In this document: positions 4,684-19,203 of the stretch, piece by piece
How the letters are laid out: each line of letters opens with the position of its first letter
Numbering within the stretch: position 1 is the first letter of the stretch
Made by a program: the position numbers and the translations under genes
DNA from: a bacterium
GTDB lineage: Bacteria > JADJOY01
Length of the DNA: 47,563 nucleotides
NCBI GenBank assembly: GCA_046331705.1
Contig: JAXLQJ010000057.1
Location: 1 to 47,563 of the forward strand
Reading direction: 5' to 3'
Notes under the pieces: generated by a model
What the model was told of the DNA's origin: nothing
Database searches by the model: none
Seen by the model: only the letters and a program-made list of their open reading frames with translations

Positions 4684-7600
4684 GCTTCCGCCTCCCCGGA
4701 GTCGAGCTCGGTGGTCGGCGGTGGTTCGGGCAGATCGGTCATCGGCTTCCCACCCCTACGCTCGAAGACGTTGTAGAGCGTCGGCAAGATGAAGAGCGTC
4801 AATAGCGTCGAGCTCACCAAGCCCCCGATCACCACTGCCGCCAGCGGCTTCTGGATCTCGCTTCCCGGACCGGTCGCGAAGAGCATCGGGATCAGGCCGA
4901 GCGCCGCAACGCTCGCTGTGATCAGCACCGGCCGCAGCCGCAGCACGGCTCCCTCGATGACCGCCTCCTCGACGGGGCGACGCTGGCGTCGTAGCTCGTT
5001 GAAGTAGCTCACCATCACCACACCGTTGAGCACCGCCACGCCGAAGAGCGCGATGAAGCCGACACTGGCGCTGACGCTCAGGTTGAACCCGCCTACGACG
5101 AGCGCCACGATCCCCCCGATGAGCGCGAAAGGGATGTTGAGCACGATCAAAAGCGACTGCTTCACCGAGTTGAACGAGGTGAAGAGCAACAAGAAGATGA
5201 GCCCGATGGTCGTCGGTACGACCACGGCAAACCGACGCATCGCGCGCTGCTGGTTCTCGAATTGGCCACCCCAAGTCATGAAGTAGCCCGTCGGCAGTCG
5301 CACCGAGGCCTCGATCTTCTCCTTCGCCTCTTTCACGAAGCCTCCAACATCCCGGCCCGTCACGTTGACCTCGATGACGATCCTCCGCTGCGCGTTCTCG
5401 CGGCTGATCTGTGCCGGACCCTCGACCCGCTCGACTCGCGCGAGCTGCCCCAGTGGGATGAGTGCACCCCGTGGTGACGGGATGAGGATGTCTCGGATCG
5501 GTCCGACGTCGTCACGCGCGCTCTCCGGGAAGCGCACCGCGAGGGCGAACGCCTTCTGGCCCTCGTAAACGGTGCTCGCGGTCTTCCCACCGATCGCCAT
5601 CTCGATGACGTCTTGCACGTCCGCGACATTGATCCCGTGCCGAGCGAGCTTGTCACGGTCGATCTCGATGTCGAGGTAGGCGAGGCCGCTTACCTTCTCG
5701 ACGTTGATGTCCGCGGAACCTCGGACCTTCCCGAGCACCTTGGCAATGCCCTCTCCCGCGGTCTTGAGCGCATCGAGATCGTCCCCGAAGACCTTGATGC
5801 CCACCGCTGCCTTGACGCCGCTCACGAGCTCATCGACGCGCAGCGCGATCGGCTGCGAGAAGCTCGACGCCACGCCCGGAAGCTGGGCGAGAGCCTCGCG
5901 CATCTCCTCGACCAGCGCTTCCTTGGTGCGCTCGGCGGGCCACTCCTCGTGCGGCTTGAGCGTCACGATCACGTCGCTGACTTCGACACCCATCGGATCA
6001 GACGCGATGTCGGCTCGACCGGTCTTCGAGACGACGTCGATCACCTCGGGAAAGCGCTTTAGGATTCGCTCGGCGCGCGTCTGTAGCTCGAGCGACTGCC
6101 CGAGCGAAATGCTCGGGATCCGGAACGTCTGCACCGCGATCGACCCCTCATCGAGCGACGGCAGGAACTCCGTACCCAGGCGTGGGACCAGGGCCAGCGC
6201 GCCGGCAAGCCCGAGCAGCGCCGGGACCAGCACCGCCCAGGGACGCCGGACCGCGAACCCGAGAGGTGCCCGGTAGAGTCGCTTCAAGGCGCGGATATGC
6301 ACCGGCTCGACGTGCCCGTGCTGCTCCTTGAGGAAGAGCGTGCAGAGCACCGGAACCAGCGTGAACGACAGCAGGAGCGAACCGAGGAGCGCGAACGAGA
6401 TAGTGAACGCCAGCGGGGCGAACATCTTCCCCTCGAAGCCCTGCAACGTGAAGAGCGGCAGGAACACGACGATGATAATGACGATCCCGAAGACGATCGG
6501 GCGCCCCACCTCCTGCGACCCATAGAGCACGATGGCGCGCTTTCCCGCGTGTCCGGGCGTGTGCCCCTCGCCGCCTTCGGTCAGATGGCGGTGAACGTTC
6601 TCGACCAGCACCACTGCGCCGTCGACCATCATGCCGATGCCGATCGCGAGACCTCCCAGCGACATCAGGTTCGCGCTCAGCCCGTACCAACGCATCATGA
6701 TGAACGCGAAGAGCGCCGCGAGCGGCAACACCAGCGTCACGATCAGGGCGCTTCGCAAGTCGGCGAGCAGCACCACCAGCACGATAAGAACGAAGATTGC
6801 CCCCTCCTGGAGCGCCTTCGTGACGGTGTGAATCGCCTTCCGAACCAGGTCTGTGCGGTCATAGAAGGGCACAAGCTCCACACCCGGCGGGAGTGCCTTC
6901 TGGATCGCAGGCAGGCGATCCTTCACCGCGTTGACGACGTCGCGCCCACTCGCTCCCTTGAGCATGAGCACGATGCCAGCCACCGCTTCGCCTTCCCCGT
7001 TGGATGTCACTGCTCCCTGGCGGAGCTCGGCGCCGATCCCCACGCGCGCTACATCCCGCACATACACAGGCGTGTGCTCGTGGGTCGCGACCACGATGTT
7101 CTCGATGTCGCGGGCGTTCTGCACGAGCCCCAGTCCGCGCACCACGTACTGCTCGGACTTGTGCTCGATGAAGTTGCCGCTCGCGTTCGAGTTGTTCTTC
7201 TCGAGCGCCTCGAACACCTCGCCGAGGCCGAGGCCATACGAGACAAGCCGATCGGGATCGACCACCACCTCGTACTGCTTCACGAAACCACCGAACGAGT
7301 TCACGTCCGTCACGCCAGGAACGGTGCGGAGGATCGGCCGCACGATGTAGTCCTGGATGGTTCTGAGCTCTGTGGCGTCGTAGCCCCCGGTGCGACTCAC
7401 CAGCGTGTACTGGAAGATCTCTCCCAGGCCCGTGGTGATCGGCCCAAGCTCGACCTCGACACCGACCGGCAGGCGATCTCGAGCCGACTGGACCTTCTCC
7501 GACACGAGCTGCCGGGCGAAGTAATCGTCCACGCCATCCTCGAAGCCCACCGTGATCGCGGTGAGACCGATCTTCGAGACCGAGCGCACCTCGGTGAGCC

Positions 7601-7832
7601 GTGGAAGTCCTGCCAACTCGACCTCGATGGGACGGGTGATCAGTTTCTCGACCTCGGGCGGCGACATCCCGCCGGCGGTCGCCAACACCTGGACCTGCAC
7701 GTTGGTCACGTCGGGGAAGGCGTCGATCGGAATCTGTCGCAGAGCGAGGCCACCAAAAGCGATGAGCAGTGCCGTGGCGATGATCACCAGCAGGCGTTGA
7801 TGGACCGCGAAGCTCAGAATGCGGTTGATCAT
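4680..7832 (-). CDS. czcA: CzcA/CusA-family heavy-metal RND efflux transporter
   Basis: 1050 aa; IPIDAFPDVTNVQVQV, ANLMSLGGLAIGIGMMVDGAVVLVEN, RLRPVLITA, GSEIQKPLAAVVIGG. Confidence 0.96.
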   Translation of the reverse strand: MINRILSFAVHQRLLVIIATALLIAFGGLALRQIPIDAFPDVTNVQVQVLATAGGMSPPEVEKLITRPIEVELAGLPRLTEVRSVSKIGLTAITVGFEDGVDDYFARQLVSEKVQSARDRLPVGVEVELGPITTGLGEIFQYTLVSRTGGYDATELRTIQDYIVRPILRTVPGVTDVNSFGGFVKQYEVVVDPDRLVSYGLGLGEVFEALEKNNSNASGNFIEHKSEQYVVRGLGLVQNARDIENIVVATHEHTPVYVRDVARVGIGAELRQGAVTSNGEGEAVAGIVLMLKGASGRDVVNAVKDRLPAIQKALPPGVELVPFYDRTDLVRKAIHTVTKALQEGAIFVLIVLVVLLADLRSALIVTLVLPLAALFAFIMMRWYGLSANLMSLGGLAIGIGMMVDGAVVLVENVHRHLTEGGEGHTPGHAGKRAIVLYGSQEVGRPIVFGIVIIIVVFLPLFTLQGFEGKMFAPLAFTISFALLGSLLLSFTLVPVLCTLFLKEQHGHVEPVHIRALKRLYRAPLGFAVRRPWAVLVPALLGLAGALALVPRLGTEFLPSLDEGSIAVQTFRIPSISLGQSLELQTRAERILKRFPEVIDVVSKTGRADIASDPMGVEVSDVIVTLKPHEEWPAERTKEALVEEMREALAQLPGVASSFSQPIALRVDELVSGVKAAVGIKVFGDDLDALKTAGEGIAKVLGKVRGSADINVEKVSGLAYLDIEIDRDKLARHGINVADVQDVIEMAIGGKTASTVYEGQKAFALAVRFPESARDDVGPIRDILIPSPRGALIPLGQLARVERVEGPAQISRENAQRRIVIEVNVTGRDVGGFVKEAKEKIEASVRLPTGYFMTWGGQFENQQRAMRRFAVVVPTTIGLIFLLLFTSFNSVKQSLLIVLNIPFALIGGIVALVVGGFNLSVSASVGFIALFGVAVLNGVVMVSYFNELRRQRRPVEEAVIEGAVLRLRPVLITASVAALGLIPMLFATGPGSEIQKPLAAVVIGGLVSSTLLTLFILPTLYNVFERRGGKPMTDLPEPPPTTELDSGEAEA

Positions 7833-7835
7833 CGT

Positions 7836-8783
7836 TCACTCCTCTCCCAGCTCGCCCTTCAACATCTCGGACTTGAGGATGAAGCTGCCGTCCGTCACCA
7901 CGGTCTCGCCTTCCCGGACGCCGTCGAGGATCTGTACCTCCCCCTCTTGCTCCTCCCCGACGCGCACGACGCGACGCTCGAAACGATCTGGGCCGAGCGC
8001 CACGAACAGGACTTGATCTCGCTCCTCGGTCTGGAGCGCGCGGTCACTCACGAGCAGCACGTTGGGGACGACCGTGGTCGTGATCTCCAGGTCCGCGAAC
8101 ATCCCCGGCTTGAGCACCCCACGTGGATTCTCGATCTCGGCCCGAATCTCGAGTGTCCTCGAAGCCGCCTCGATCTCGCCCCCCACACGCGCGATGGTGC
8201 AGTGGAAGACTTCGTCGGGATACGGAACCACGCGGAACGCGATCTCCTGACCGGACGCCACGAGCCCTGCGTCGCGCTCTCGGACCTCACCGATCACCCA
8301 GACCCTGGACGAGTCGCTCACCTCGTAGACGTCCGCGCCACGGTCCACCAGCTCGCCCAGCGTGCGGTTTCGCTCGACCACCCGGCCTGCGATCGGCGAC
8401 CGAAGCTCGAGCGGCTTCCCAACCAGCTCGGGAGTCTCGACGAGACCCATGACCTCACCGGCGCGGACCGCGTCGCCGATGTCGAAGTTGAGCCGGATGA
8501 TCCGACCCTCCAGCGTGCTCAGTACCTTCGCGGTGCGGTTCTGGTTGGCCGAGATCCGGCCCGGCACCCGAAGCCGCTTCCGCAGATCCCCTCTCCGCGC
8601 AGACTCGGTGCGGATGGTCGCGTTCGCCAAGGCTTCCTTGGTGAGTGTGACGACGCTCGCTTCCGGCGCGAGCGCGTCTGCGCCGCGCTCCTCGGCCAAG
8701 GCAGTGCCGCATCCGAAGGCGAGCGACATGACGATGAAGAGAACGGGCGTGCGGGGTGCTGCACGGTGACGGCGAGCGTTCAT
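7836..8783 (-). CDS. czcB: RND periplasmic adaptor (CzcB/CusB-like), apparently lacking the alpha-helical hairpin
   Basis: Lipoyl halves GDAVRAGEVM and LRSPIAGRVVER, LKPGMFA, GVREGETVVTDGSFIL; lies between czcC and czcA. Confidence 0.9.
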   Translation of the reverse strand: MNARRHRAAPRTPVLFIVMSLAFGCGTALAEERGADALAPEASVVTLTKEALANATIRTESARRGDLRKRLRVPGRISANQNRTAKVLSTLEGRIIRLNFDIGDAVRAGEVMGLVETPELVGKPLELRSPIAGRVVERNRTLGELVDRGADVYEVSDSSRVWVIGEVRERDAGLVASGQEIAFRVVPYPDEVFHCTIARVGGEIEAASRTLEIRAEIENPRGVLKPGMFADLEITTTVVPNVLLVSDRALQTEERDQVLFVALGPDRFERRVVRVGEEQEGEVQILDGVREGETVVTDGSFILKSEMLKGELGEE

Positions 8784-10102
8784 GGATGAGCTCCTTCGCT
8801 CTTGGGCGCCGAGTCGAGCGGCGCTCCGATGGCTTCTTCCAGATCCGCCTGCGCGGTAGCGACCGCGGCGAGGCTCTCGTAGTAGGCGGCGAGGGTGTCG
8901 AAGTAGGTCTTCCGCGCATCGAGGTAGATGAGGAATGTCGTGGCGCTTTGGCCGTACCCGCGCTCGGCACGCTCGAGCAGGGACCGCAGGCGTTCCAGGA
9001 ACTCCGGCGTGTAGAGCGCCACCTGTTCCTGCGCAGCAACGAGCCGTTCGGTCGCCGCGCGCACCGCTCCGCTGAGGTCCCGCTCCAGTCGACCAATCTC
9101 GGCACGCGCACGGCGCTCTTCCGCCGTCGCGGTTTCGATCCCGCCGCGGTTCGAGTTCCAGAGCGGCAGCGGAATGGAGAGCCCGATGCCGTAGATCTGT
9201 TCGTCTTCGGAAATCTCGGCCGACGGTGCGACCGTGAGATCGGGACTCGATGCGAGCTTCGCGGCGTCGACGCCAAGCCCCGCGGCGTCTGCTTCCATCC
9301 GGCTCAATCGCAGCTCGGGATTTCGCTCCAGCGCGAACCCGACCACGTTCGCGGGCAGATTGACCGCGCGCACAGCATCGAGTGAGCCGACCTCGCGGAG
9401 GGCCGGCGTCGGCTCCTTCCCGAACAGTGCAAACAGGCCGACCCGCGCCGCGGCAAGCTCGCCGCGAGCCGCGCGCACTCCCCGTTCAGCTTCGAGGACC
9501 TCGGCGTCACCCTTGGTCGCCTCGAAGTCCGACCCATACCCAGTGTCGGCACGCTTGCGGGCGGCCTCGGCGAATCGAGTCGCGATTTCTCGCTGTTGCT
9601 CGCGAAGCTGGAGGATCTCTCGGGCAGCGAGCACCTCGTAGAACGCGCGGCGCACTCGGATCTCGAGCTGTCCGTAAAACGCCTCGAGCGCCACCTCGCG
9701 CTGACGAACGGTTCCGTCTGCGATGGCCTTGCGAAGCGCCCGCTTGCCGGGGAACTCGATCTTCTGAGCGATTTCGATCTCGCCGTGAAAGCCCGTCTCG
9801 TTCCCCCCATCGCCCTTCGACACGACGATGCCCGGCGAGAGCGAGAGCTCCGGATTCTCGAGGATGTCGGCAGCGACCGAATCGCCCACAGCCGCTGCGG
9901 TCGACGCTCCGAGAAATTCAATCTCGGGGTTCCCCAACCGCGACCACTCCTGCGCACGTTCGAGCGTAAGATCCGACACCACTGCGGATGTCGCATCGGT
10001 CGCGACGACGCTCACACCCGCGGGCCTCTCGGCTGGCCCCGCGTGTGCGAGGCACGGCAGCACCATGAGCCCGCACACCACGACGAAGCATCGAATCCAC
10101 AT
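8780..10102 (-). CDS. czcC: TolC/CzcC-family outer membrane efflux protein
   Basis: ATG at 10102 after GGAGG, signal peptide, NPELSL..QKIEFPGKRALR, GLSIPLPLWNSNRG; ATGA overlap with czcB. The start could be upstream, up to 10195. Confidence 0.9.
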   Translation of the reverse strand: MWIRCFVVVCGLMVLPCLAHAGPAERPAGVSVVATDATSAVVSDLTLERAQEWSRLGNPEIEFLGASTAAAVGDSVAADILENPELSLSPGIVVSKGDGGNETGFHGEIEIAQKIEFPGKRALRKAIADGTVRQREVALEAFYGQLEIRVRRAFYEVLAAREILQLREQQREIATRFAEAARKRADTGYGSDFEATKGDAEVLEAERGVRAARGELAAARVGLFALFGKEPTPALREVGSLDAVRAVNLPANVVGFALERNPELRLSRMEADAAGLGVDAAKLASSPDLTVAPSAEISEDEQIYGIGLSIPLPLWNSNRGGIETATAEERRARAEIGRLERDLSGAVRAATERLVAAQEQVALYTPEFLERLRSLLERAERGYGQSATTFLIYLDARKTYFDTLAAYYESLAAVATAQADLEEAIGAPLDSAPKSEGAHP

Positions 10103-10303
10103 GAAACGGTCCTCCCCTTCCATCGAGACAGCCGTGACGCCACCTACGGGTGGCGCCGCAGTGGATCGAGATCTGAACCACCCGGCGTTTCGCACCGCGG
10201 CCCGCCAGCCCGGACGAGCCGGAGCTGCTGAGGCAAACGGATGACCACGCCGCGAAACCGAGCGACGCTCGGTCTCAGCAGGTGATGTGACGCTGGGTGA
10301 GGA

Positions 10304-10726
10304 TCAGATCAGGAGGACGACGGTACCGAGACGGAGACGGTCAGACGAACTCGAGCTCACAGGGAACAGGAGCGACCTCGAGCGATCTGGGGCGGAAATC
10401 TGTACTGCTTCCGCGAAGGCAACCGCCGTGAAATCAACCGCTAACGGCTGCCGTTCCGTGCCCGACGGTGGGTCTGCTGATGTAGTACCGAGTCCCCCGT
10501 AGAGCGGTACGTCGACGCAAGCGCGTTGCGGACTCGCAAGCGAACGGCCTTCGTCCGCACCGCCACGGGAGACTGTCCAGCAACCAGCCTCCGGGTGTAC
10601 CGGTTCGATCGCGACGTGGTTGCCCGGCGCGAGACACAGCACGCGATCTGAACTGGTCGCGAGGAAGCTCGCAAGCGCGGCGGTGAGCGCCAACAGCGCT
10701 GCTCGTTGTCGAGTGGCCCGGATCAT
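10304..10726 (-). CDS. Small exported Cys/His leader protein upstream of czcCBA (CzcI/CutF-like position)
   Basis: N-terminal hydrophobic helix, VLCLAPGNHVAIE, further Cys (EAGCW, RACVDVP), C-terminal LRLGTVVLLI. Confidence 0.65.
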   Translation of the reverse strand: MIRATRQRAALLALTAALASFLATSSDRVLCLAPGNHVAIEPVHPEAGCWTVSRGGADEGRSLASPQRACVDVPLYGGLGTTSADPPSGTERQPLAVDFTAVAFAEAVQISAPDRSRSLLFPVSSSSSDRLRLGTVVLLI

Positions 10727-11128
10727 GACCGCGGGAAGATACGTGCAGGACCCGCTAGCCGCAAGGGACGCCGGTCTAGGTACACACGGCTCGAACGGAT
10801 CGAGTCGTCTCGAACTCGCGCACCGACGCGGACTCGGCCACGCCAGCGTTCACGCCGGCTTTGCTGTGCGACCTCACGGATCTTATCCGCGGATCTCGAA
10901 AGCGTTCGACTGCATCGACTCACGGTCCGGTGCGGCGGCCCCGTGTTCGAGCGGAGAGGCGCTGAACGAGCCCGGCTGTCGTGCAGCCACAGAGCCGCAT
11001 GTCGCCCGGAGCGAAACGGACACGCCTGAGCACGCAGCTCACGACCCTTCACGCCCGCCGGATGTTCGTGGTGATGCCGAGCTGCTCGTGGGGGCATCGC
11101 CTTTCCAGCGAGAAGGCACTGCGGCGAA

Positions 11129-11152
11129 TACACGATACGGTGCAATAGTGTA
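11129..11152 (+). promoter_or_regulatory. Putative ArsR/SmtB operator
   Basis: TACACGAT-N8-ATAGTGTA inverted repeat (7/8), ending 9 nt before the ArsR ATG at 11162. Confidence 0.6.
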
Positions 11153-11161
11153 CCGATCGAC

Positions 11162-11512
11162 ATGAAGACGCGTTGCCCACCCAAAAGCCGGCTTCGCGAG
11201 CGGCCGCTGCTCGCCCTGGCTGCTTCCGCCCGCGTCGCGAGGCTCTTCAGCGTCCTGTCGAACGACACGAGGTTGCGACTTCTTGCACGCTCCTCGCTCG
11301 AAGCGGGCGAGCTGTGTCCGACGGAGCCTCGCCCGGACCGTGGGCATGAAGCCGCAGGCCGTCTCCAACCAGATGCAGCGGCTCGTGGCGGAACGAATCC
11401 TGGTCGGCCGGCGCGACGGAAACAACGTCTGCTACGCGATCGCGACCCATGCGTGCTCGAGCCTCCGACCGCGGGCTTTGCCTGCTCGAGACGGGCGAGC
11501 CTCCGCACATGA
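11162..11512 (+). pseudogene. ArsR/SmtB-family regulator with several frameshifts (pseudogene or sequencing error)
   Basis: Joining frames gives MKTRCPPKSRLRERPLL..LFSVLSNDTRLRLL(H)A..GELCPTE(L)ARTVGMKPQAVSNQMQRL..RRDGNNVCYAI..DPCVLE..DRGLCLLE. Several breaks look like single duplicated bases. Confidence 0.8.
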
Positions 11513-12597
11513 GCGCCTCGAGGCGCAGCGCGCGAGATGGAGCGGGCAGCCGAGGCACCCGAGTGCTGGGGGTGCGGCTGCTCACCACGCATAGGGTGAC
11601 GACGATCGAGGAGGCTCCTGCCGCCAGATCAGCGGTCGGCTGTGCTCGCGGCGTCCGTCGATGCGGCACGTGCCGGCTGAGAACGATCGAATGGCGACTG
11701 CCTCGGCTGCCCCGAGCGCTTTCCGGCTCTGGCGATCGAGGCCGTGGGCGAGGTCGCCGGCCCGGCCCGGTTCGTACACCGTGGCCCGCTACCGCGCACC
11801 AGTGGCGGTCTGCAGCCTGACCGACGAACGGCTCGCGCGTGCACTGCTCGACCCGGTGCCCGAGGGGACCGCGATCGTGGGCACGATGCAGACCGAGAAT
11901 CTCGAACGAGCGACTCGTGACGAACGTCGTGGCGAATCCGCACATCCGCTTCGTGGTCGTGTGCGGCGCCGACTCCGAGCGCGCGGTTGGCCACCGACCC
12001 GGCGCCTCCCTGGTCGCACTCGCCCGCAACGGGCTCGGCCCGCATGCGCGGATCGCCGACGCACCCGGCAAGCGGCCCATCCTCCGAAACCTGGACCCGC
12101 GTGCGGTCGACCACTTCCGCGCGACGGTCGAGGTGGTGGACCTGGTCGGCGAGGCGGACCTGGGCCGGATCGCGCGCGCCGTCCAAGCGTGCGCCAAGCG
12201 GGACCCCGGTCCGGCGGCACCGTTGGCTCTCGCGAATCGGGTCGTGACCGAGCGGGCCTATCTCCCCGAGCGCATGGTCCCCGATCCCGGTGGCTACTTC
12301 GTGGTGTACGTGGACCGAGCCCGCGAGACGCTGGCGCTCGAGCACTACCGCAAGGACGGAGCGCTGGACGCACTCTTCACGGGACGGACCGCCGCCGAGC
12401 TCTACACTCCGGCGATCGCCCGCGAGCTCCTGTCGCGGCTTGACCATGCCGCGTACCTCGGACGCGAGCTGGCGCGCGCCGAGCGCTCTCTCACGACCGG
12501 CGAGCCGTACACTCAGGACGCTGCACCCGAGCGTTCGCGCGCTCCGGCACGCGAGGCTCGCTGTGGATGCGGTCCATCCGCCGGTAGCTGCGCATGA
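11509..12597 (+). CDS. MtrA-like (tetrahydromethanopterin S-methyltransferase subunit A) corrinoid domain + DUF4346 fusion with Cys-rich N-terminus; 5' third frameshifted in this sequence
   Basis: Across frames: CWGCGC (11564-11581), DCLGCPE (from 11696), PGSYTV..APVAVCSL..AIVGTMQTENL[GI]ERLVTNVVANPHIRFVVVCG..GHRPGASLVALARNG..IADAPGKRPILRNL (MtrA signature). Then DPGGYFVVYVD..EHY..GRTAAELY..SRLDHAAYLGRELARAE (DUF4346). Frame is open from about 11908 to the stop. Confidence 0.8.
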
Positions 12598-13031
12598 ACG
12601 GCGCCAGCTCATCCAAGCTGCTTCTCGCGGTCGTCGCGCTGTTGCTCGCGACGCCGGTGAGAGCCGGCGAGACCGCCGCCGGCGCGGCAGACCCGCCACG
12701 GATGGGCGTCGAGGCCCTGATGGAGCGGGCAGAGAGCGCGAAGGGCACCGTCGTGGTCGAGGGAATCGTGACGCGCGTGGTGCCGGACCGGAAGCTCTTC
12801 GCGCTCGCCGACCTGAGCGACCGGGAAGAGGTCGAACGCTCCGGTACTACGAGCTGCGTGACGTTGCCCGTCGCGTGGGAAGGCGAGATGCCTCCCGTCG
12901 GCTCGATCGAAGAGGTGGCGGGAAAGCTCGACCTCGACGAGGGCGGGCGGCGGGTCTTTCGAGCGACGTCGGTGCGCGCGCGGCCGGCGACTCCGCCAGC
13001 CATGCCTCCTCCGGCAGGGGAGCGCCGATGA
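12594..13031 (+). CDS. Exported small protein, probable OB-fold
   Basis: Signal peptide (..ATPVRA), GTVVVEGIVTRV..LFALAD..SCVTLPVAWEGEMP..VAGKL; ATGA overlaps at both ends. Confidence 0.7.
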   Translation: MNGASSSKLLLAVVALLLATPVRAGETAAGAADPPRMGVEALMERAESAKGTVVVEGIVTRVVPDRKLFALADLSDREEVERSGTTSCVTLPVAWEGEMPPVGSIEEVAGKLDLDEGGRRVFRATSVRARPATPPAMPPPAGERR

Positions 13032-13540
13032 GCCCGCTCCGCCGTCGGGCCCTCGGCGCAGCCGTGTTCCTGGGCGCGTCGCTCGCGCACTTCGCGTGGT
13101 TCGCGCATTCGCAAGCGGCCGCGAACTGGGTGTCGCTCGACGGCGAGGCGCCGGCGCCCGCCCTTCTCTACCTGCGTACCCAGGACGTCTGGCTGGGCCT
13201 CTCCTACGGCCTGGCGCTCGGCTTCGCGGCGACGTGGTTCCTGCGCTACCGAGAGGAGCGGCGCTGGCAGGCGCGGGCGCTCTCGGCCGGTGGGCTCGCG
13301 ATGTCGAGCGTCGTGGCCGCCGGTGGCTGCTACCTCGTCGGGTGCTGTGGATCTCCGCTGCTCGGCCTCTACCTGACGGTCTTCGGCGCTCGGTTCCTGC
13401 CGCTCGCCAAGCCGCTGGTGTTCGCGGTCACGGTGGCCTCGCTCGCCGGCGGGAGCGGGTGGCTCGCCCGCGCGCGGCGCGCGCATGCGTGTTCGTGTGA
13501 GCCGGCGACAGCAAGCTCGCCGACGACGGCGAGTTGCTGA
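13028..13540 (+). CDS. Membrane protein with CxxxGCCGSP motif (MerT/MerF-like Cys pair)
   Basis: ATG at 13028; about 4 hydrophobic segments; GGCYLVGCCGSPLLGLYL; C-terminal ACSC..SC. Confidence 0.7.
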   Translation: MSPLRRRALGAAVFLGASLAHFAWFAHSQAAANWVSLDGEAPAPALLYLRTQDVWLGLSYGLALGFAATWFLRYREERRWQARALSAGGLAMSSVVAAGGCYLVGCCGSPLLGLYLTVFGARFLPLAKPLVFAVTVASLAGGSGWLARARRAHACSCEPATASSPTTASC

Positions 13541-13713
13541 CGCGCCCCTTGCGACGGCCCAGCAGCCGAGTTCCTTTGGGCCGCTGACCTGCGCGAGCCC
13601 CACGCATTCCCATCTCGGCACGACGACGACCGGCGTCGGAGCAAGTTGACTTCCCCGGTTCGGGAGTACCCGCGAGGTGCGGGCCACACCGTTCGGGCTT
13701 GCCTACAGTCGGG

Positions 13714-13731
13714 CATGCGGATATCCATATG
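13714..13731 (+). promoter_or_regulatory. Putative ArsR operator
   Basis: CATGCGGATATCCATATG imperfect palindrome (14/18) at the arsR start. Confidence 0.55.
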
Positions 13732-13734
13732 TTC

Positions 13735-14103
13735 ATGGCTCAGCCCCGCGTAGCCGTCGACGACGTCCGGCACGTTTCCCGGCTCTTCAAAGCGCTCGGG
13801 GACGAAACGCGCCTCAAGATCGTGGCGCTGCTGGCCCACGGCGAGCTCTGTGTGTGTCACGTCGAGGAAGCCCTTGCACTTTCTCAGCCTGCGGTGTCGC
13901 GGCACCTGAGCGTGCTGCGCGCAACGGGGGTCGTGGAGGCGCACCGCGACGGAACCTGGGTCTATTACCGCCTCGCTCGCCAGCCGGACGACGAGTCGGA
14001 GCGCCAGCTCAAGGCGGTCGTGAACGCCTTCCGAGCTCGGACCGGCATGAAGCGCGAGCTCGAACGCCTGATGAAGGTCCGCGGCCCCGGATCCTGCACC
14101 TGA
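13735..14103 (+). CDS. arsR: ArsR As(III)-responsive repressor (ELCVC type)
   Basis: FKALGDETRLKIVALLAHGELCVCHVEEALALSQPAVSRHL..DGTWVYYRL; start at 13729 or 13735. Confidence 0.92.
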   Translation: MAQPRVAVDDVRHVSRLFKALGDETRLKIVALLAHGELCVCHVEEALALSQPAVSRHLSVLRATGVVEAHRDGTWVYYRLARQPDDESERQLKAVVNAFRARTGMKRELERLMKVRGPGSCT

Positions 14104-14121
14104 TCAACGAGGCGAACCCAC

Positions 14122-15207
<1,086 letters not shown>

Positions 15208-15230
15208 GTGGGCAACGAGAGGCTCTCCCG

Positions 15231-15869
15231 ATGACGCACGAATCGAGGCTCGACCCGCTCGTCGAGCGGATCATCGACGACATCGCACCGAAGTTCGCGT
15301 CGGTCTTCTCGCGCGAGACGATCGAGCAGTTCGTGATGCACTCGTACGAAGACCTCTCGCGCCGGGCGCGGGTCACGACCTACGTCGCGGGCCTGACGCA
15401 GCGGTTCGCCATCGACCGGCTTCGCGATCTCGCACGCGCGGAAGGAAAGACCGTGTCCGACAAACCCGAAGTGCTGTTCGTGTGCGTCCACAACGCGGGC
15501 CGGTCGCAGATGGCGGCCGGCCTCCTCCATCATCACGCTCAGGACCGCGTGATCGTCCGCTCGGCGGGAAGCGCTCCCGTCGAAACGATCAACCCTGCTG
15601 TAGTCGAGGTGATGACGGAAGTGGGCATCGACCTGTCCCAGGAGTTTCCGAAGCCACTCACCGACGAGGCGGTGCGAGCCGCCGATGTGGTGATCACGAT
15701 GGGCTGCGGCGATGCGTGCCCGGTGTATCCCGGCAAGCGCTACCTGAACTGGGAGCTCGCCGACCCAGCCGGCCAGACGATCGCCGACGTGCGGCCCATT
15801 CGCGACGAGATCGACCGTCGCGTCCGTGCCCTACTCGCCGAGTTGCTCAAGTCTCCAGCCGGTCGTTGA
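15231..15869 (+). CDS. arsC: Arsenate reductase, LMW-PTPase fold with N-terminal helical extension
   Basis: ATG at 15231; about 75 aa N-terminal domain (FSRETIEQFV..RFAIDRL), then VLFVCVHNAGRSQMA and TMGCGDACPVYPGKRYLNW. Confidence 0.92.
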   Translation: MTHESRLDPLVERIIDDIAPKFASVFSRETIEQFVMHSYEDLSRRARVTTYVAGLTQRFAIDRLRDLARAEGKTVSDKPEVLFVCVHNAGRSQMAAGLLHHHAQDRVIVRSAGSAPVETINPAVVEVMTEVGIDLSQEFPKPLTDEAVRAADVVITMGCGDACPVYPGKRYLNWELADPAGQTIADVRPIRDEIDRRVRALLAELLKSPAGR

Positions 15870-16069: not shown

Positions 16070-16159
16070 TCAAGCGGCCTTTGTTACGACGCTTGGCCCG
16101 CTCTCGTACCAGCCCTTGCTCGCCTTGACCACGCGGACCACCAGCAGCATCACCGGCAC
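16070..16159 (-). pseudogene. 3' remnant of a second acr3 gene
   Basis: VPVMLLVVRVVKASKGWYESG..stop matches the Acr3 C-terminus (compare EVPVMLSV..RSWF in the intact copy); it overlaps the end of arsA. Confidence 0.7.
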
Positions 16160-17922
16160 CACTCCGAGACGGGATGAACGAGCTTGATCAACCGCGCGAT
16201 ACCGACGGGCTCCTCCGCCAGCAACGGGATGACGGCGTAGCGAGAGGAGTGCCGTGTGGCCACCGCCGCGATCTGCGCGACCTCCTCGGCAGCGCGCTGA
16301 CGCAGCAGGGGCGAGCGAGTCTCCGCCACGGCCAGGCTGCTGTTGACGATCCAAGCCCACGGCTCGATGCCGGCCCGGCGCAGGTCAGCCTGGAGGCTGG
16401 CCGCCTCGAGTACTGGGGTGGTTTCGGCCAAGGTCACGATGAGAATCTTGGTCCGCCTGGGGTCTTGAAGCAGCATCATGGGTGTCGTGAAATTCAGTCC
16501 GGAGCTGCCCATCTGGCGGGCCGTTTCCCGATGATAGGCACCGGTGGCATCGAGCAGCAGTAGCGTGTGGCCCGTCGGCGCCGTGTCCATCACGACAAAG
16601 CGCTTCCCGGCCTCGCGAATGACTTTCGAGAAGGCCTGGAAGACCGCGATTTCTTCGGTGCAGGGTGAGCGAAGGTCTTCCTCGAGCAGCGCGCGGCCCT
16701 GAGCATCGAGCTTCGCGCCCTTGGCCGCCAGCACGTCGCTTCGGTAGCGCTCGGTCTCCGCATGCGGGTCGATGCGGCTCAACTCCAGCGAATCGAGCGT
16801 GCCGTCCAGCATGTCCGACAGGTGCGCTGCCGGGTCAGAAGTCGTGAGATGGACGGCATGGCCGCGCCGAGCCAATTCCACTGCAACGGCGGCGGCGAGC
16901 GTGGTCTTGCCCACCCCACCTTGCCCATCACCATTACCAGGCGGCCCGGCGCCTCGATGTCGTCGATGAGTGCGGCGAGCGGCGGCGCGGACGTCGTGGG
17001 CGGGTCGACGCGGCGCTGGGGAGGCGTGTCCGACACCGTGGGATCGAGGAGCCCGCGCAACGCTGCCAACCCCACCACGTTGGTGGCCTTGGGAAGGCAC
17101 GGTGTCGCGAGGAAGGGCGCTCAGTGCATCGGGCAGTTCGTCGAGGGCTGCTCCCTCACGGGCCACGATCGCTGTGGCCAGCGGATCATCCTTGCCCTCA
17201 GGCGCGGGCAGAATGCCGTTGATCCCAGGTACTGTCGGCCGAGCCCGATCGCGGCAAGCTCTTCCTGGGTGCGTGCCGCCTCCTGGAGCGTCGCGCGCTG
17301 CGCGCGCCGCCACCAGCACCAGGCGTGTACGCGCAGGGTCGGCAAGTGCGTCGACTGCGGCTCGGTACTGCGCGCGTTGCTTTTCGAGACCGGCGAGCGG
17401 ACCGAGGCAGGACGCATCGCCCGCGCCCTGTTCGAGGAAGCCACTCCAGGCGCCCGGCAACTGCAATAGACGAATCGTGTGGCCCGTAGGGGCCGTGTCG
17501 AACACGATGTGGTCGAACTGGGCGGTCAGCTCACTGTCGGTGAGCAGCGACGTGAACTCGTCGAAGGCAGCGATCTCGGTGGTGCAGGCGCCGGAGAGCT
17601 GCTCCTCGATGCCCTTCACGATGCCGTCCGGAAGCACGCCGCGAACCGGTCCGACGATCCGCTCGCGGTAGGCCTGTGCCGCCGCCGGAGGGTCGATCTC
17701 GAGCGCCGAGAGACCTGGCACCGTGTCGATGGGCGTCACGCGGTGCCCGATCTCGATTCCGAACACTTGCCCCACGTTAGAGGCCGGATCCGTGCTGACC
17801 AGCAGCACGCGGTTGCCTTCATCGACCAAGCGAACGGCGGTGGCACAGGCGAGTGACGTCTTGCCTACGCCGCCCTTGCCGGTGAAGAACAGATACGCGG
17901 GCGCCTGCTCGATGAAGTTCAT
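16150..17922 (-). CDS. arsA: Arsenical pump-driving ATPase ArsA, with two internal compensating frameshift pairs
   Basis: ATG at 17922 after GAGGGAG; FTGKGGVGKTS, STDPASN, SGACTTEIAAFDEF, DTAPTGHTIRLL, second GVGKTT, SPCTEE, DTAPTGHTLLLL. Segments at about 17225-17307 and 16920-17093 read correctly only in another frame. Confidence 0.93.
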   Translation of the reverse strand: MNFIEQAPAYLFFTGKGGVGKTSLACATAVRLVDEGNRVLLVSTDPASNVGQVFGIEIGHRVTPIDTVPGLSALEIDPPAAAQAYRERIVGPVRGVLPDGIVKGIEEQLSGACTTEIAAFDEFTSLLTDSELTAQFDHIVFDTAPTGHTIRLLQLPGAWSGFLEQGAGDASCLGPLAGLEKQRAQYRAAVDALADPARTRLVLVAARAARDAPGGGTHPGRACRDRARPTVPGINGILPAPEGKDDPLATAIVAREGAALDELPDALSALPRDTVPSQGHQRGGVGSVARAPRSHGVGHASPAPRRPAHDVRAAARRTHRRHRGAGPPGNGDGQGGVGKTTLAAAVAVELARRGHAVHLTTSDPAAHLSDMLDGTLDSLELSRIDPHAETERYRSDVLAAKGAKLDAQGRALLEEDLRSPCTEEIAVFQAFSKVIREAGKRFVVMDTAPTGHTLLLLDATGAYHRETARQMGSSGLNFTTPMMLLQDPRRTKILIVTLAETTPVLEAASLQADLRRAGIEPWAWIVNSSLAVAETRSPLLRQRAAEEVAQIAAVATRHSSRYAVIPLLAEEPVGIARLIKLVHPVSEWCR

Positions 17923-17947
17923 GGCTCCCTCGTGGTGCCCCGCACTG

Positions 17948-18586
17948 TCAACAGCACTTCGACGCCTTCGACGGTGCCGGCCCCGAGGCGGGTCCACAGC
18001 ACCCGCCCGCTGCGGGCGCGGGGCTCTCGTTCACCGCGCCTCCGGCGGGCTGCGCGACTTTCGTTTCGAGGTGGCGGCCAGCGAGGTCGAGCACGGCGCG
18101 GGCGGGCATTTCCTTGACCAGTTGAGCGAGATCCACGGCACGGCGCATGTCGGCATCGGTGACGCCGAGCTTGCGCGCCCGATTGACATGGAACGTGAGG
18201 CAGGGCTCGCAGTTCGAGGCGATGGCGGATCCAATGGCCACTAGCTCTGCTACCTGTTCCGTGAAGATCGAGGGCGCTTGCTCGACACCTGCTGTCCACT
18301 TCGCGAGCTCATCTCGCGACGGGTAGCTCCCACGTTGCATGACCGCGCCATCGACCAGGGTCACCGGCAGCGCAGCCTCGCCCCGTGTTTCCAGCAGCTT
18401 GCGGACGGCCGAGTGCGCCGCGAAGGCCTGGGGTTGCTGAGCGAGGTTGAAGCGCTCGACGGTCACCCCCCGGCTCTTGAGCCACTCCACATCAGCCGCG
18501 AAGGTGACGAGAGCCTGATCTACGTCCACGCCGCAAACACCCGAGCTGCAACAAAGCGCGGGATCGAAGACCTGAACCTTGATCAT
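17948..18586 (-). CDS. arsD: ArsD arsenic metallochaperone fused to a CMD/AhpD-like domain
   Basis: AAGGAG RBS; FDPALCCSSGVCG..ERFNLAQQPQAF..YPSRDEL (ArsD), then ELVAIGSAIASNCEPCLTFH..ARKLGV (CMD), and tail GCCG..KCC. Confidence 0.9.
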   Translation of the reverse strand: MIKVQVFDPALCCSSGVCGVDVDQALVTFAADVEWLKSRGVTVERFNLAQQPQAFAAHSAVRKLLETRGEAALPVTLVDGAVMQRGSYPSRDELAKWTAGVEQAPSIFTEQVAELVAIGSAIASNCEPCLTFHVNRARKLGVTDADMRRAVDLAQLVKEMPARAVLDLAGRHLETKVAQPAGGAVNESPAPAAGGCCGPASGPAPSKASKCC

Positions 18587-18657
18587 GACAATGCTCCTTC
18601 GATGGGGGACGGTGGTGACGGCGACCGGCGCGGCCGTGAGCGCGGACTCCGGGTTGT

Positions 18658-18990
18658 TCATCGCGATGCCCTCGCGCGAGCTGGCGCCGCTCGCGGCATA
18701 CAGGGTTGACCGCCGCAGCAGTTGTCGCCGAGGAACGCCACGAGTGCGTTCATGACCTCGAAGTTCGCCGAGTAATACATGAAGCGCCCTTCCTGCCGGC
18801 GCTCGACGAGCCCGGCATGGCTCAAGGTCTTGAGGTGGAACGAGAGCGTGCTCGTCGGGATGCCCTCGCGCTCGGCGAGGTCGCCGGCCGCCACGCCCTT
18901 GGGGCCGGCGCGGACGAGCCGACGGAACACCTCCAGCCGGCTCTCTTGCGCCAAAGCGTTGAGGCAGCGGACTGCGTTCGTCGTGTCCAT
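18658..18990 (-). CDS. arsR: ArsR repressor with C-terminal CC site
   Basis: LNALAQESRLEVFRRLVRAGPKG..STLSFHLKTL..YSANFEVMNALVAFLGDNCCGGQPC. Confidence 0.92.
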   Translation of the reverse strand: MDTTNAVRCLNALAQESRLEVFRRLVRAGPKGVAAGDLAEREGIPTSTLSFHLKTLSHAGLVERRQEGRFMYYSANFEVMNALVAFLGDNCCGGQPCMPRAAPARARASR

Positions 18991-18991
18991 G

Positions 18992-19009
18992 TTTCTGGAA
19001 TTATCGAAA
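18992..19009 (-). promoter_or_regulatory. Putative ArsR operator
   Basis: TTTC-N3-AATT-N3-GAAA AT-rich dyad immediately before the ATG. Confidence 0.6.
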
Positions 19010-19203
19010 TGATGACCCGAGGCAAGTCGGCCTAAACGACGACGTGTCGTTTGGCTGCTTCAACAGCGATCCGATCCAGTACGGAGCCGCGTGGTGCGCA
19101 GGCGGTCCACGTCCGGCTGGCCGGGTTCGTGGAAGTTACGAGGCTGTAACGGCAGTCGCCGATCTCTGACCGATGCCAGACGCTTGGGAGCGCGAGTCAC
19201 AGG

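What the first reader, a model, noticed from the sequence alone, without database searches (positions are those of the whole stretch)
11509..12597. Three-domain architecture: Cys-cluster + MtrA + DUF4346 + Cys tail
Seen: the N-terminus, hidden by frameshifts, has CWGCGC and DCLGCPE(R)FP, where codon CGC is one base from TGC (a possible CxxCxxC). The C-terminus is RCGCGPSAGSCA. Known: DUF4346 also occurs fused to dihydropteroate-synthase-like pterin-binding proteins. Inference: one polypeptide could combine an Fe-S or metal site, a corrinoid site and a methyl-pterin-related domain, functionally paralleling HgcA+HgcB.
Basis: partly seen in the sequence, partly recalled or inferred. Interest (0 to 1): 0.78.

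Follow-up and report, generated by a model that had tools for sequence, protein, structure and literature searches.

The report
Broken corrinoid protein in metal operon
This is a decayed copy of a widespread, unstudied bacterial protein that joins a seven-cysteine domain, a vitamin-B12-binding domain, a domain of unknown function and a cysteine tail, and that normally sits in metal-resistance operons.

Summary
Window 11509-12597 (+) is one gene cut into three reading frames. A near-identical intact protein from metagenomes (P0001, 383 aa) shows the full layout: N-terminal Cys domain, MtrA-type corrinoid domain (PF04208), DUF4346 (PF14251) and a Cys-rich tail.

- **Cys conservation:** the six Cys of CWxCGC and DCLGCxxC are invariant in 112 of 112 homologues.
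- **State of this copy:** it is dead. It has two in-frame TGAs, at least three frame changes, loss of residues 88-103 and 153-154, and the changes C69R and C380G. Contigs from other sequencing runs show the same lesions, so they are not assembly errors. The upstream ArsR gene is broken too.
- **Family context:** more than 576 species genomes carry the family. It lies behind an ArsR regulator in 56 of 71 loci and before a Cys-motif membrane protein in 47 of 70. It also occurs fused to those partners.
- **Best reading:** the cytoplasmic end of a mer-like cysteine relay that hands a thiophilic metal(loid) to a corrinoid centre, probably for methyl transfer. The chemistry is inferred, not shown.
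- **Literature:** my searches found no paper on the family.

The parts
11509..12597 (+). Whole broken gene (pseudogene) of the Cys-domain + MtrA + DUF4346 + Cys-tail family. ATG is at 11509 and the TGA stop at 12595-12597.
   Evidence: intact homologue P0001
11525..11773 (+). Piece A, frame 2: residues 6-87 of the N-terminal Cys domain. 54 of 83 residues are identical to P0001. In-frame TGA codons lie at 11597-11599 and 11678-11680.
11564..11581 (+). CWGCGC, equivalent to the invariant C19, C22 and C24.
11696..11725 (+). DCLGCPERFP, equivalent to the invariant C63 and C66. The third invariant Cys (C69) is replaced by R, codon CGC at 11717-11719.
11765..11774 (+). Site where about 56 nt present in the intact allele are missing. 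Residues 88-103 are lost, including near-invariant C92, G102 and W103 and invariant R100.
   Evidence: (X2 record 11: record positions 1824 to 1880 have no counterpart in the window)
11757..11903 (+). Piece B, frame 0: residues 104-152, the start of the MtrA domain up to TENL. 45 of 49 residues are identical.
11904..11905 (+). A 2-nt deletion; the intact allele has GT behind 11904. G153 and I154 of the invariant TENLGIER motif are lost, and the frame changes.
   Evidence: table 4
11908..12594 (+). Piece C, frame 1: residues 155-383. It holds the rest of MtrA (to about 12216), DUF4346 (about 12283-12519) and the tail. 226 of 229 residues are identical to P0001.
11989..12003 (+). GHRPG. The His is the counterpart of the cobalt ligand His84 of MtrA.
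   Evidence: PMC4915002 (passages)
12559..12594 (+). Cys tail RCGCGPSAGSCA. P0001 has ...PSACSCA at the same place.
11162..11512 (+). Broken ArsR/SmtB-type regulator of the cassette. The CPPK N-terminus and NDTRLRLL are in frame 2, MKPQAVSNQMQRL in frame 0 and GLCLLE in frame 1.
12594..13031 (+). Small secreted protein 'P' (145 aa, signal peptide), a conserved downstream partner. The first Cys of its conserved pair is S in this copy.
13028..13540 (+). Membrane protein 'M' (170 aa) with the GCxxxGCCGSP motif, a conserved downstream partner. It has no Pfam or NCBIfam family.
13699..15207 (+). Context: an intact ArsR (13699-14103) and an ACR3-type arsenite carrier (14122-15207).

Best explanation
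Window 11509-12597 is a decayed, non-functional allele of a conserved bacterial protein of about 385-395 aa.

The protein has four parts:
1. A helical N-terminal domain with seven invariant Cys (KCWxCGC ... DCLGCxxC ... C).
2. An MtrA-type corrinoid-binding domain with the cobalt-ligand His.
3. DUF4346.
4. A flexible Cys-rich tail, mostly CxC.

In intact form the gene is the second gene of an ArsR/SmtB-controlled cassette. In the window's type this reads ArsR, this protein, a small secreted two-Cys protein, then a membrane protein with a GCCGSP motif.

Inferred mechanism: a mer-like cysteine relay. The outer protein and the membrane protein pass a thiophilic metal(loid) inwards to the Cys tail. 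The substrate is then transformed at the corrinoid, most probably by methyl transfer to or from the metal(loid). The CxxCxxC...C part of the N-domain would act as an Fe-S relay that keeps the cobalt reduced.

Shown: the domain layout, residue conservation, gene neighbourhood, fusions and the broken state of this copy. Inferred: Fe-S binding, the substrate and the reaction.
For: **Architecture**
- P0001 (383 aa) matches PF04208 at 131.6 bits and PF14251 at 78.2 bits.
- A profile of 112 homologues hits the MtrA structures 5laa and 5l8x at E 5e-44 and 8e-41.
- The AF2 model has mean pLDDT 84.3 and matches 5laa_A with target-normalised TM 0.83 at 38% identity.
- C19, C22, C24, C63, C66, C69 and H183 are each present in 112 of 112 sequences. 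C92 is present in 110 of 112.
- Seven Cys are invariant in 68 of 68 genome-derived N-domains.
- 109 of 112 tails carry at least 2 Cys in the last 30 residues, and 80 of 112 carry CxC.

**Broken state is real**
- Contigs of runs X1 and X7 lack the GT behind 11904, like the window. X2 (1 contig) and X4 (2 contigs) have it.
- X4 record 19 spans the deletion point near 11774 with 0 gaps.
- Long ORFs elsewhere in the window are intact, for example the 1050-aa RND pump.

**Context**, from the 79 species loci kept of 576 found
- ArsR lies upstream on the same strand in 56 of 71 loci with enough flank.
- A Cys-motif membrane protein lies downstream in 47 of 70 loci: the M type in 28, CcdA-like in 16, MerT in 3.
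- The small secreted protein is present in 30 of 70 and a thioredoxin-like protein in 15 of 70.
- MerT scores 36.1 bits against PF02411 (cut-off 32.9). A MerC-like protein is a weak match.

**Fusions**
- Of 35 representatives of at least 330 aa among the best 150 N-domain hits, 9 are fused: 3 to the M protein, 4 to the secreted protein and 2 to the thioredoxin-like protein.

**Plasmids**
- Planococcus plasmids carry ArsR, an HMA protein, a P1B-ATPase and this protein. In that version ACGC repeats sit in a linker and there is no Cys tail.

**Window neighbours**
- These are a czcCBA-like RND pump with its fusion and outer-membrane proteins, a CDF carrier, and ArsR, ACR3, ArsC, ArsA and ArsD.
Against: - No experiment or paper links this family to any metal (searches found none).
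- The N-domain has no solved structural relative, so an Fe-S role rests on the motif alone.
- No pterin methyltransferase or other methyl donor gene is a conserved neighbour.
- CcdA-like and thioredoxin-like partners fit an electron relay as well as a metal relay.
- 8 of 62 loci with both flanks have none of the partner genes.
- The 79 loci are those most similar to P0001, so they are not a random sample.
- Partner families were defined from these same loci.
- The uneven divergence between the broken and intact alleles is unexplained. The 3' 690 nt are about 99% identical, while the 5' part is much more diverged.
Confidence: 0.5

Rival explanations
1. Electron relay instead of metal relay. The protein would be the cytoplasmic redox partner of a transmembrane thiol-disulfide conduit. 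That conduit is CcdA-like or the GCCGSP membrane protein, and it would keep a periplasmic thioredoxin-like or two-Cys protein reduced under metal or oxidative stress. The Cys tail would shuttle electrons rather than metal.
For: - The order F, thioredoxin-like, CcdA/DsbD-like recurs: CcdA-like in 16 of 70 loci and thioredoxin-like in 15 of 70.
- The CcdA-like protein matches the NCBIfam DsbD model at E 2.6e-17.
- Two fusions join the protein to a thioredoxin-like domain through a membrane anchor, P0129 and P0201.
- The ArsR type also scores weakly against BigR, a sulfite or persulfide sensor, at E 4.6e-11 and below the cut-off.
Against: - No known disulfide reductase uses a corrinoid (recalled).
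- MtrA-fold proteins are known only as methyl carriers (PMC4915002, passages).
- MerT, a MerC-like protein, an HMA protein and a P1B-ATPase as neighbours, and CGC repeats in the Planococcus form, point to metal binding.
Confidence: 0.2
2. Reductase reading. Cob(I)alamin, fed by the Fe-S domain, reduces the bound metal (for example Hg(II) to Hg(0)) or cleaves a metal-carbon bond by demethylation. The protein would then be a functional analogue of MerA or MerB, not a methylating enzyme.
For: - The layout matches the mer system: an outer Cys protein, a CC-motif membrane protein and a cytoplasmic enzyme with a Cys tail.
- True MerT is a neighbour in 3 of 70 loci.
- Importing a toxic metal makes sense only if the product is less toxic or volatile (inference).
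Against: - No precedent exists for an MtrA-type corrinoid acting as a reductase.
- SMR-type cation exporters lie beside the gene in some loci (upstream in 4 of the 62 loci with both flanks). That fits export of a methylated cation better.
- There are no direct data.
Confidence: 0.12
3. Assembly or sequencing artefact. The organism would carry the intact gene, and the frameshifts would be errors or a chimeric consensus of strains.
For: - An intact allele that is 99% identical over the last 229 residues exists in the same kind of samples.
- The contig of a same-genus MAG (L004, G001) starts at window 11917, just past the last frameshift.
- Indels are crowded into about 750 nt.
Against: - Contigs from other runs and studies reproduce the window's lesions. 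X7 and X1 lack GT at 11904, and X4 record 19 runs gap-free across the deletion point. X2, X4 and X7 pieces over 11302-11615 resemble the window, not the intact allele.
- Long ORFs elsewhere in the window are intact.
- X1 may be the source sample and is then not independent.
Confidence: 0.12
4. Ordinary MtrA, a subunit of tetrahydromethanopterin S-methyltransferase in C1 metabolism, as JGI names most of the homologues it annotates.
For: - JGI names these proteins 'tetrahydromethanopterin S-methyltransferase subunit A'.
- NCBIfam NF002128 carries that name and matches positions 13-389 of 390.
Against: - The score of 451 is below the curated cut-off of 568.
- The protein has no membrane helix.
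- No mtrB-H genes were seen among the neighbours scanned.
- Hosts include Nitrospirales, Planctomycetota, Opitutaceae, Dechloromonas and Planococcus.
- The protein has extra Cys domains.
Confidence: 0.03

Closest known systems
Cytoplasmic MtrA homologues and MtrA of the Mtr complex (PF04208; PDB 5laa, 5l8x)
   Same: The central domain is homologous, with profile E about 5e-44 and 38-39% identity. The model superposes on 5laa with target TM 0.83. The cobalt-ligand His84 and its Glu54 partner correspond to the invariant H183 and E150.
   Different: - It has an added 7-Cys N-domain, DUF4346 and a Cys tail.
- It has no membrane helix and no MtrB-H partners.
- It is bacterial and sits in ArsR-controlled metal-resistance contexts.
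NCBIfam NF002128 (a 390-aa model named MtrA) and PGAP's 'DUF4346 domain-containing protein'
   Same: The full-length layout is the same. P0001 aligns to positions 13-389 of 390. Planococcus and MAG records carry the DUF4346 name.
   Different: The score of 451 is below the cut-off of 568. The names describe homology only, and no function has been tested.
HgcA + HgcB (mercury methylation; features recalled, not fetched)
   Same: The functional ingredients match: a corrinoid centre, Fe-S-type Cys motifs and a terminal Cys motif suited to hold Hg(II). The resemblance is by analogy only.
   Different: - There is no homology. Pfam finds only MtrA and DUF4346.
- The cobalt ligand is His, not the HgcA cap-helix Cys (recalled).
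- It is a single soluble chain.
- It is under ArsR control and paired with import-type membrane proteins.
mer system (MerP, MerT or MerC, MerA; features mostly recalled)
   Same: The parts list is parallel: an outer Cys-pair protein, a CC-motif membrane protein and a cytoplasmic enzyme with a flexible Cys tail. True MerT (PF02411) and a MerC-like protein replace the M protein in some loci.
   Different: The regulator is ArsR/SmtB-type, not MerR. The enzyme is a corrinoid protein, not a flavin disulfide reductase. The P and M proteins have no Pfam family.
Corrinoid iron-sulfur protein of the acetyl-CoA pathway (recalled)
   Same: An N-terminal Cys motif that could hold [4Fe-4S] sits beside a corrinoid domain that carries methyl groups.
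   Different: The corrinoid fold is different, MtrA-type. The N-domain has no detectable relative among solved structures.
TIGR00284 dihydropteroate-synthase-like proteins with C-terminal DUF4346
   Same: The DUF4346 domain is shared, E 3.3e-12 at profile positions 418-495 of 497.
   Different: The window's family has no pterin-binding (DHPS-like) domain.

Membership tests
MtrA corrinoid-binding domain (PF04208) | Sequence match above Pfam's gathering score | tested here: met
   P0001 scores 131.6 bits (cut-off 25) at profile positions 4-156 of 173. The window ORF 11839-12594 scores 82.6 bits at positions 56-156.
MtrA corrinoid-binding domain (PF04208) | Cobalt-ligand His (His84) and its H-bonded Glu (Glu54) | tested here: met
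   H183 is present in 112 of 112 sequences, and E150 is invariant in TENLGIER. Both align with GH and TENLG of 5laa. Their roles are taken from PMC4915002 (passages). The His codon is kept in the window at 11992-11994. The GI of TENLGIER is lost.
MtrA corrinoid-binding domain (PF04208) | Rossmann-type MtrA fold | tested here: met
   The AF2 model against 5laa_A gives E 1.2e-12 and target TM 0.83.
MtrA corrinoid-binding domain (PF04208) | Actual binding of a corrinoid | not testable with these tools
   This needs purified protein and UV-vis or EPR spectroscopy.
Mtr complex subunit A (methanogen-type) | C-terminal membrane helix and MtrB-H partners | tested here: not met
   The model shows no helix after DUF4346. 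Neighbours in the window and in 79 loci are ArsR, Cys-motif membrane proteins and metal pumps. No mtr genes were seen among those scanned.
NCBIfam NF002128 (390-aa equivalog) | Score at or above the curated cut-off of 568 bits | tested here: not met
   P0001 scores 451 bits with full-length coverage, positions 13-389 of 390.
DUF4346 (PF14251) | Sequence match above the gathering score | tested here: met
   The window ORF scores 79 bits (cut-off 29.6) at profile positions 2-86 of 86.
[4Fe-4S] ferredoxin-type site | CxxCxxC plus a distal Cys, often followed by Pro | tested here: met
   C62, C65, C68 and C84 are invariant in 68 of 68 sequences, and the consensus reads CP after C84. This tests the motif only.
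[4Fe-4S] ferredoxin-type site | Cluster actually bound, or a fold like known Fe-S domains | tested here: inconclusive
   The N-domain model (pLDDT 88.4) has no PDB match. Foldseek's best E is 2.7 and VIA-align's best Z is 4.8.
HgcA/HgcB | Homology to the HgcA corrinoid and membrane domains and to the HgcB 2x[4Fe-4S] ferredoxin | tested here: not met
   Pfam and NCBIfam scans of P0001 return only MtrA-type and DUF4346 models. The HgcAB features themselves are recalled.
mer operon | MerR regulator, MerT/MerP and MerA reductase | tested here: not met
   The regulator is ArsR-type. MerT is present in only 3 of 70 loci. No MerA was seen among the neighbours scanned. The resemblance is in layout only.

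The most novel reading that the evidence does not exclude
The family is a new class of metal(loid)-transforming enzyme. It would be a single-chain corrinoid/Fe-S protein that receives Hg, As or another soft metal(loid) through a mer-like Cys relay. The relay runs from a secreted two-Cys protein, through a GCCGSP, MerT or CcdA-like membrane protein, to the Cys tail. The enzyme would then methylate, demethylate or reduce the substrate at cobalt. That would be an HgcAB, MerB or MerA analogue present in aerobes and anaerobes of many phyla and on plasmids.
Probability: 0.3. Interest if true: 0.85.

Novelty: new variant of a known kind. Interest (0 to 1): 0.6.

Why it matters
Corrinoid-dependent metal chemistry in bacteria is known mainly from HgcAB mercury methylation (recalled). 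This work defines a second, unrelated corrinoid protein family that is tied to metal-resistance operons in three ways: by gene order, by ArsR control and by fusions to its partners.

The family is common. At least 576 of the species genomes scanned carry it, in Nitrospirales, Planctomycetota, Verrucomicrobiota, Methylomirabilota, Acidobacteriota, proteobacterial lineages and on Planococcus plasmids. It has no described function.

If it methylates or demethylates metal(loid)s, that would bear on the sources and sinks of organometals in oxic habitats such as activated sludge. The hypothesis can be tested in cultured carriers: Planococcus kocurii ATCC 43650, Fontivita pretiosa B-254 and Dechloromonas sp. 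ARDL1.

The window's own copy matters less, because it is a dead allele that coexists with an intact one.

Tried and rejected
- **Complex prediction**, intact protein (alignment A1) with the M membrane protein (A3): no verdict, score 0.00, controls not run. This is no evidence either way.
- **ESM Atlas:** residues 1-98 of P0001 gave no usable hit. The M protein gave only clusters of hypothetical proteins, and the HMA and YHS rows at 0.75-0.76 are below the level of a lead.
- **Structure searches with the N-domain model:** Foldseek against PDB gave a best E of 2.7. VIA-align wide gave a best Z of 4.8, on generic helical hairpins. With the whole model only MtrA chains were significant.
- **Literature** (the library holds open-access papers only):
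  - 'DUF4346' gave 0 papers.
  - MtrA + corrinoid + ArsR gave 1 paper, on methanogen genes (listing only).
  - 'tetrahydromethanopterin S-methyltransferase' + MerT gave 2 papers on methanogens and anaerobic digestion (listing only).
  - MtrA + methylmercury + corrinoid gave 0.
  - A loose six-term search gave only general metal-resistance papers.
  - 'pA26H3' gave 0.
- **Selenocysteine or a split gene** behind the doubled family ORFs in 16 loci was rejected. The second ORF is the separate downstream secreted protein, linked to the family cluster through fusion proteins.
- **Recoding of the window's two TGAs** was not pursued. Around both codons the translation does not align with P0001, as expected from local frame disruption.
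- **Sequencing runs:** none of the 24 runs listed holds more than 0.56 of the sampled words of 10900-12700. Only 4 of them were laid.
Full report
**1. What is in the sequence**

The window has 68.8% G+C. At 11509-12597 (+) the three forward frames each hold part of one gene.
- ATG AGC lies at 11509, in the frame with start mod 3 = 1.
- ...ECWGCGC... (11564-11581) and ...DCLGCPERFP... (11696-11725) lie in frame 2.
- ...PGSYTVARYRAPVAVCSL...MQTENL lies in frame 0.
- ERLVTNVVANPHIRFVVVCG...RCGCGPSAGSCA* lies in frame 1 and ends at the TGA at 12595-12597.

The only long ORF, 11839-12597 (252 aa), matches Pfam MtrA (PF04208, 82.6 bits, profile 56-156 of 173) and DUF4346 (PF14251, 79 bits). The frame-0 piece weakly matches the start of MtrA (profile 7-54, E 0.021).

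**2. The intact form**

A protein search with the 252-aa ORF gave 2256 proteins at E <= 0.001 among 8000 scored candidates. Of the 120 listed, most are 380-400 aa. The best, P0001 (383 aa, from a 3108-nt contig), is 99% identical over the ORF and continues upstream with MSFERAARELERAAEARKCWRCGCLHH...YDCLGCPECFPALAIEAVGEVAG....

tblastn of P0001 against the window gives the lesion list:
- Residues 6-87: 54 of 83 identical, with two in-frame TGAs (11597 and 11678) and scrambled stretches around residues 25-34 and 55-62.
- Residues 88-103 are absent.
- Residues 104-152: 45 of 49 identical.
- G153 and I154 are lost.
- Residues 155-383: 226 of 229 identical, with C380 replaced by G.

The genome that holds the window (8.17 Mb, 118 contigs, 95.7% complete) has no second copy.

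**3. Conservation**

I aligned 112 of the 120 listed homologues. The eight dropped were shorter than 360 aa: P0016, P0017, P0028, P0035, P0039, P0095, P0100 and P0107.
- C19, C22, C24, C63, C66, C69 and H183 are each present in 112 of 112 sequences.
- C92 is present in 110, C122 in 111, C173 in 107, C249 in 106, C373 in 88 and C375 in 103.
- In the last 30 residues, 109 of 112 have at least two Cys and 80 of 112 have CxC.

An independent set came from species genomes. It comprised 68 of 71 distinct N-domain segments, omitting L007 and L012 as near-duplicates of L006 and L020 as too short. It shows K17, C18, C21, C23, C62, C65, C68, P70 and C84 as invariant. That makes seven invariant Cys: a CxxCxC triplet and a ferredoxin-like CxxCxxC...C(P) set.

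**4. The domains**

A profile of the 112 sequences finds the solved MtrA chains 5laa (E 5.2e-44), 5l8x, 8q3v and 9qtq, and nothing else at E <= 1. The GH of the family aligns with GHIVGQS of 5laa, and TENLGIE with TENLGIE.

The MtrA structure paper states that His84 is the lower axial cobalt ligand, H-bonded to Glu54. It also states that MtrA homologues with this His occur in some bacteria (PMC4915002, passages read).

The AF2 model of P0001 (pLDDT 84.3) shows:
- a helical N-domain (residues 1-87);
- a disordered linker (88-107);
- the MtrA domain;
- a small three-strand, two-helix DUF4346;
- a disordered tail.

Foldseek against PDB finds only MtrA chains at E <= 0.001, with 5laa_A at target TM 0.83.

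The N-domain was folded alone from the Fontivita pretiosa sequence (pLDDT 88.4). It has no solved relative by Foldseek (best E 2.7) or by the wide VIA-align search (best Z 4.8).

A profile of the N-domain finds only 323 cluster representatives among 1.84 billion at E <= 0.001. Of the ten longest that I scanned with Pfam, eight carry MtrA. P0264, a 310-aa fragment, and P0233 (299 aa) returned no Pfam family. P0264 matches my own family model over residues 163-292.

NCBIfam already has a 390-aa model of this layout, NF002128, named MtrA. P0001 covers positions 13-389 but scores 451 against a cut-off of 568. TIGR00284 (DHPS-like protein) shares the DUF4346 part.

**5. Is the breakage real?**

I looked for public runs that hold 10900-12700. 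Twenty runs hold part of it, all from sludge, wastewater or similar samples, and none holds more than 0.56 of the sampled words. I laid the contigs of four runs.

Run X2 has a 3108-nt contig that represents the intact allele. Relative to the window:
- It carries GT behind 11904.
- It carries about 56 nt that the window lacks near 11774.
- It differs strongly over 11161-11695.
- It is unrelated upstream of 11161.

The window's form is nevertheless seen elsewhere.
- Contigs of X1 and X7 that cover 11904 lack the GT.
- X4 has both forms.
- X4 record 19 (11695-11878) crosses the deletion point with no gap.
- Short contigs of X2, X4 and X7 over 11302-11615 resemble the window rather than the intact allele.

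X1 may be the source sample and is then not independent.

A same-genus MAG has a 3850-nt contig that equals window 11917-15766 at 99.74% with no gaps. It starts just past the last frameshift, as expected if two haplotypes diverge there. Long ORFs elsewhere in the window are intact.

I conclude that a broken allele and an intact allele coexist in these communities. I give about 0.12 to an artefact. The uneven divergence along the gene remains unexplained (notebook).

The upstream ArsR (11162 to about 11512) is also split over three frames. The stretch from about 9900 to 11850 lacks codon periodicity.

**6. Neighbourhood**

The window carries the following genes:
- a CDF carrier (3242-4159, minus strand);
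- an RND pump with its fusion and outer-membrane proteins (4680-10195, minus strand);
- the broken ArsR and the broken gene;
- a 145-aa secreted protein (12594-13031);
- a 170-aa membrane protein with GCYLVGCCGSP (13028-13540);
- ArsR, ACR3 and an LMW-phosphatase-type ArsC;
- ArsA and an ArsD-CMD fusion;
- a TPMT/TehB-like methyltransferase.

The 80 best were kept, and 79 are distinct from the window's near-twin L004.

I called ORFs, clustered them and built HMMs for the recurrent neighbours. The counts are:
- ArsR upstream on the same strand: 56 of 71 loci with at least 600 nt of flank.
- A Cys-motif membrane protein downstream: 47 of 70 loci with at least 1200 nt of flank. This is the GCCGSP type 'M' in 28, CcdA/DsbD-like in 16 and MerT in 3.
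- The small secreted two-Cys protein 'P': 30 of 70.
- A thioredoxin-like protein: 15 of 70.
- DJ-1/PfpI: 4 of 70.

Among the 62 loci with both flanks, the commonest layouts are:
- ArsR-F-P-M in 21 (23 with a second ArsR), which is the window's type;
- ArsR-F-Trx-CcdA in 7, plus 3 with an SMR pair and 2 with a MerC-like protein;
- none of these partners in 8.

Family assignments rest on Pfam and NCBIfam: the ArsR/SmtB metalloregulator at 79 bits; MerT PF02411 at 36.1 against 32.9; MerC at weak E of about 1e-6; DsbD at E 2.6e-17; thioredoxin at E 4.5e-8. P and M match no family.

Other frequent neighbours are RND, P1B-ATPase and CDF metal pumps.

These loci are the nearest relatives of P0001, and the partner models come from the same loci. 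The fractions therefore describe this sample only.

**7. Fusions and plasmids**

Of the best 150 N-domain representatives, 35 are at least 330 aa long, and 9 of these are fused:
- to M: P0123 at the C-terminus, and P0208 and P0248 at the N-terminus;
- to P: P0130, P0154, P0163 and P0263;
- to the thioredoxin-like domain, behind a membrane anchor: P0129 and P0201.

A 310-aa fragment (P0264) and the 565-aa ORF of L037 show the same.

Three Planococcus plasmids encode a 459-aa family member annotated 'DUF4346 domain-containing protein', in which ACGC repeats sit between the N-domain and MtrA and the tail has no Cys. In pA26H3 the gene follows ArsR, an HMA protein and a P1B-ATPase.

In the window's genus, 1 of 4 other genomes has the gene and 0 of 1 in the family does. 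The first 22 kb of the window have weaker third-position G+C than the rest. The cassette therefore looks like accessory, transferred DNA.

**8. Mechanism**

Shown: the layout, the conserved ligands, the operon, the fusions and the topology. F has no signal peptide or membrane helix, while P and the thioredoxin-like protein have N-terminal signal or anchor segments.

Inferred: the parts parallel MerP, MerT and MerA (recalled). A thiophilic metal(loid) would be passed by Cys pairs across the membrane to the flexible Cys tail, and from there to the active site.

MtrA-fold proteins are known only as methyl carriers. I therefore take methyl transfer between the cobalt and the bound metal(loid) as the most likely step. 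The CxxCxxC...C set would serve as an Fe-S site for reductive activation. The CxxCxC triplet could be a second cluster or a three-Cys substrate site. SMR exporters in some loci would fit a cationic methylated product.

The main rivals are an electron relay (0.2), cob(I)-dependent reduction or demethylation (0.12), an artefact (0.12) and true Mtr function (0.03).

**9. Verdict**

The architecture is right. The HgcAB analogy is reasonable but untested, and there is no homology.
- This copy is a pseudogene.
- The family is catalogued in NCBIfam and by PGAP under homology names. My searches found no functional study. The library holds open-access papers only, and supplementary files were not consulted.
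- Interest is 0.6. It comes from the family rather than from this dead copy.

Noticed in passing
window 11162-11512: The ArsR/SmtB regulator of the cassette (CPPK N-terminus) is itself split over three frames. Regulator and enzyme are therefore decayed together, while the two downstream genes are intact ORFs.
   Followed up: partly
window about 9900-11850: About 2 kb has no third-position G+C periodicity, lying between the outer-membrane efflux gene and the intact part of the gene. Other weak stretches lie at 600-2000, 2700-3200, 4050-4650 and 17700-20500. The first 22 kb have a lower GC3 (about 0.8) than the rest (about 0.9), as expected for an acquired metal-resistance island.
   Followed up: partly
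window 11161 and 11917; L004: The haplotypes switch at two places. The intact allele's contigs in X2, X4 and X7 share one foreign sequence upstream of 11161. A same-genus MAG contig equals 11917-15766 at 99.74% and ends at both places. Divergence between the alleles is very uneven along the gene, and this is unexplained.
   Followed up: partly
window 12594-13031 and 13028-13540: Two conserved partner families have no Pfam or NCBIfam model. One is a small secreted protein with a C...TxC pair, whose first Cys is Ser in the window. The other is a membrane protein of about 170 aa with a near-invariant GCxxxGCCGSP motif.
   Followed up: partly
window 15231-15869, 16150-17997 (-), 17948-18661 (-): The ars genes beside the cassette are intact. 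ArsC is of the LMW-phosphatase type with an N-terminal PF21234 domain. ArsA is present, and ArsD is fused to a carboxymuconolactone-decarboxylase-family (CMD) domain.
   Followed up: partly
window 20840-21730: A SAM-dependent methyltransferase with TPMT and TehB-like matches lies in the same island. It may act on Se, Te or As, but this was not examined further.
   Followed up: no
L085 352-4736 (Planococcus plasmid pA26H3); L084: The plasmid carries an operon of ArsR, an HMA protein, a P1B-ATPase and a 459-aa family member, next to an ISL3 transposase. This version carries four ACGC/CSC repeats in the linker instead of a Cys tail.
   Followed up: partly
L023 4251-10655 (Nitrospirales MAG): The cassette (ArsR, F, DJ-1/PfpI and a MerT fragment) lies between two gene sets. 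One holds a MerR-type regulator with a CC-motif membrane protein. The other holds ArsR, a glyoxalase-like protein, ArsC and ACR3. I read these from ORF translations, and only some were scanned against Pfam.
   Followed up: no
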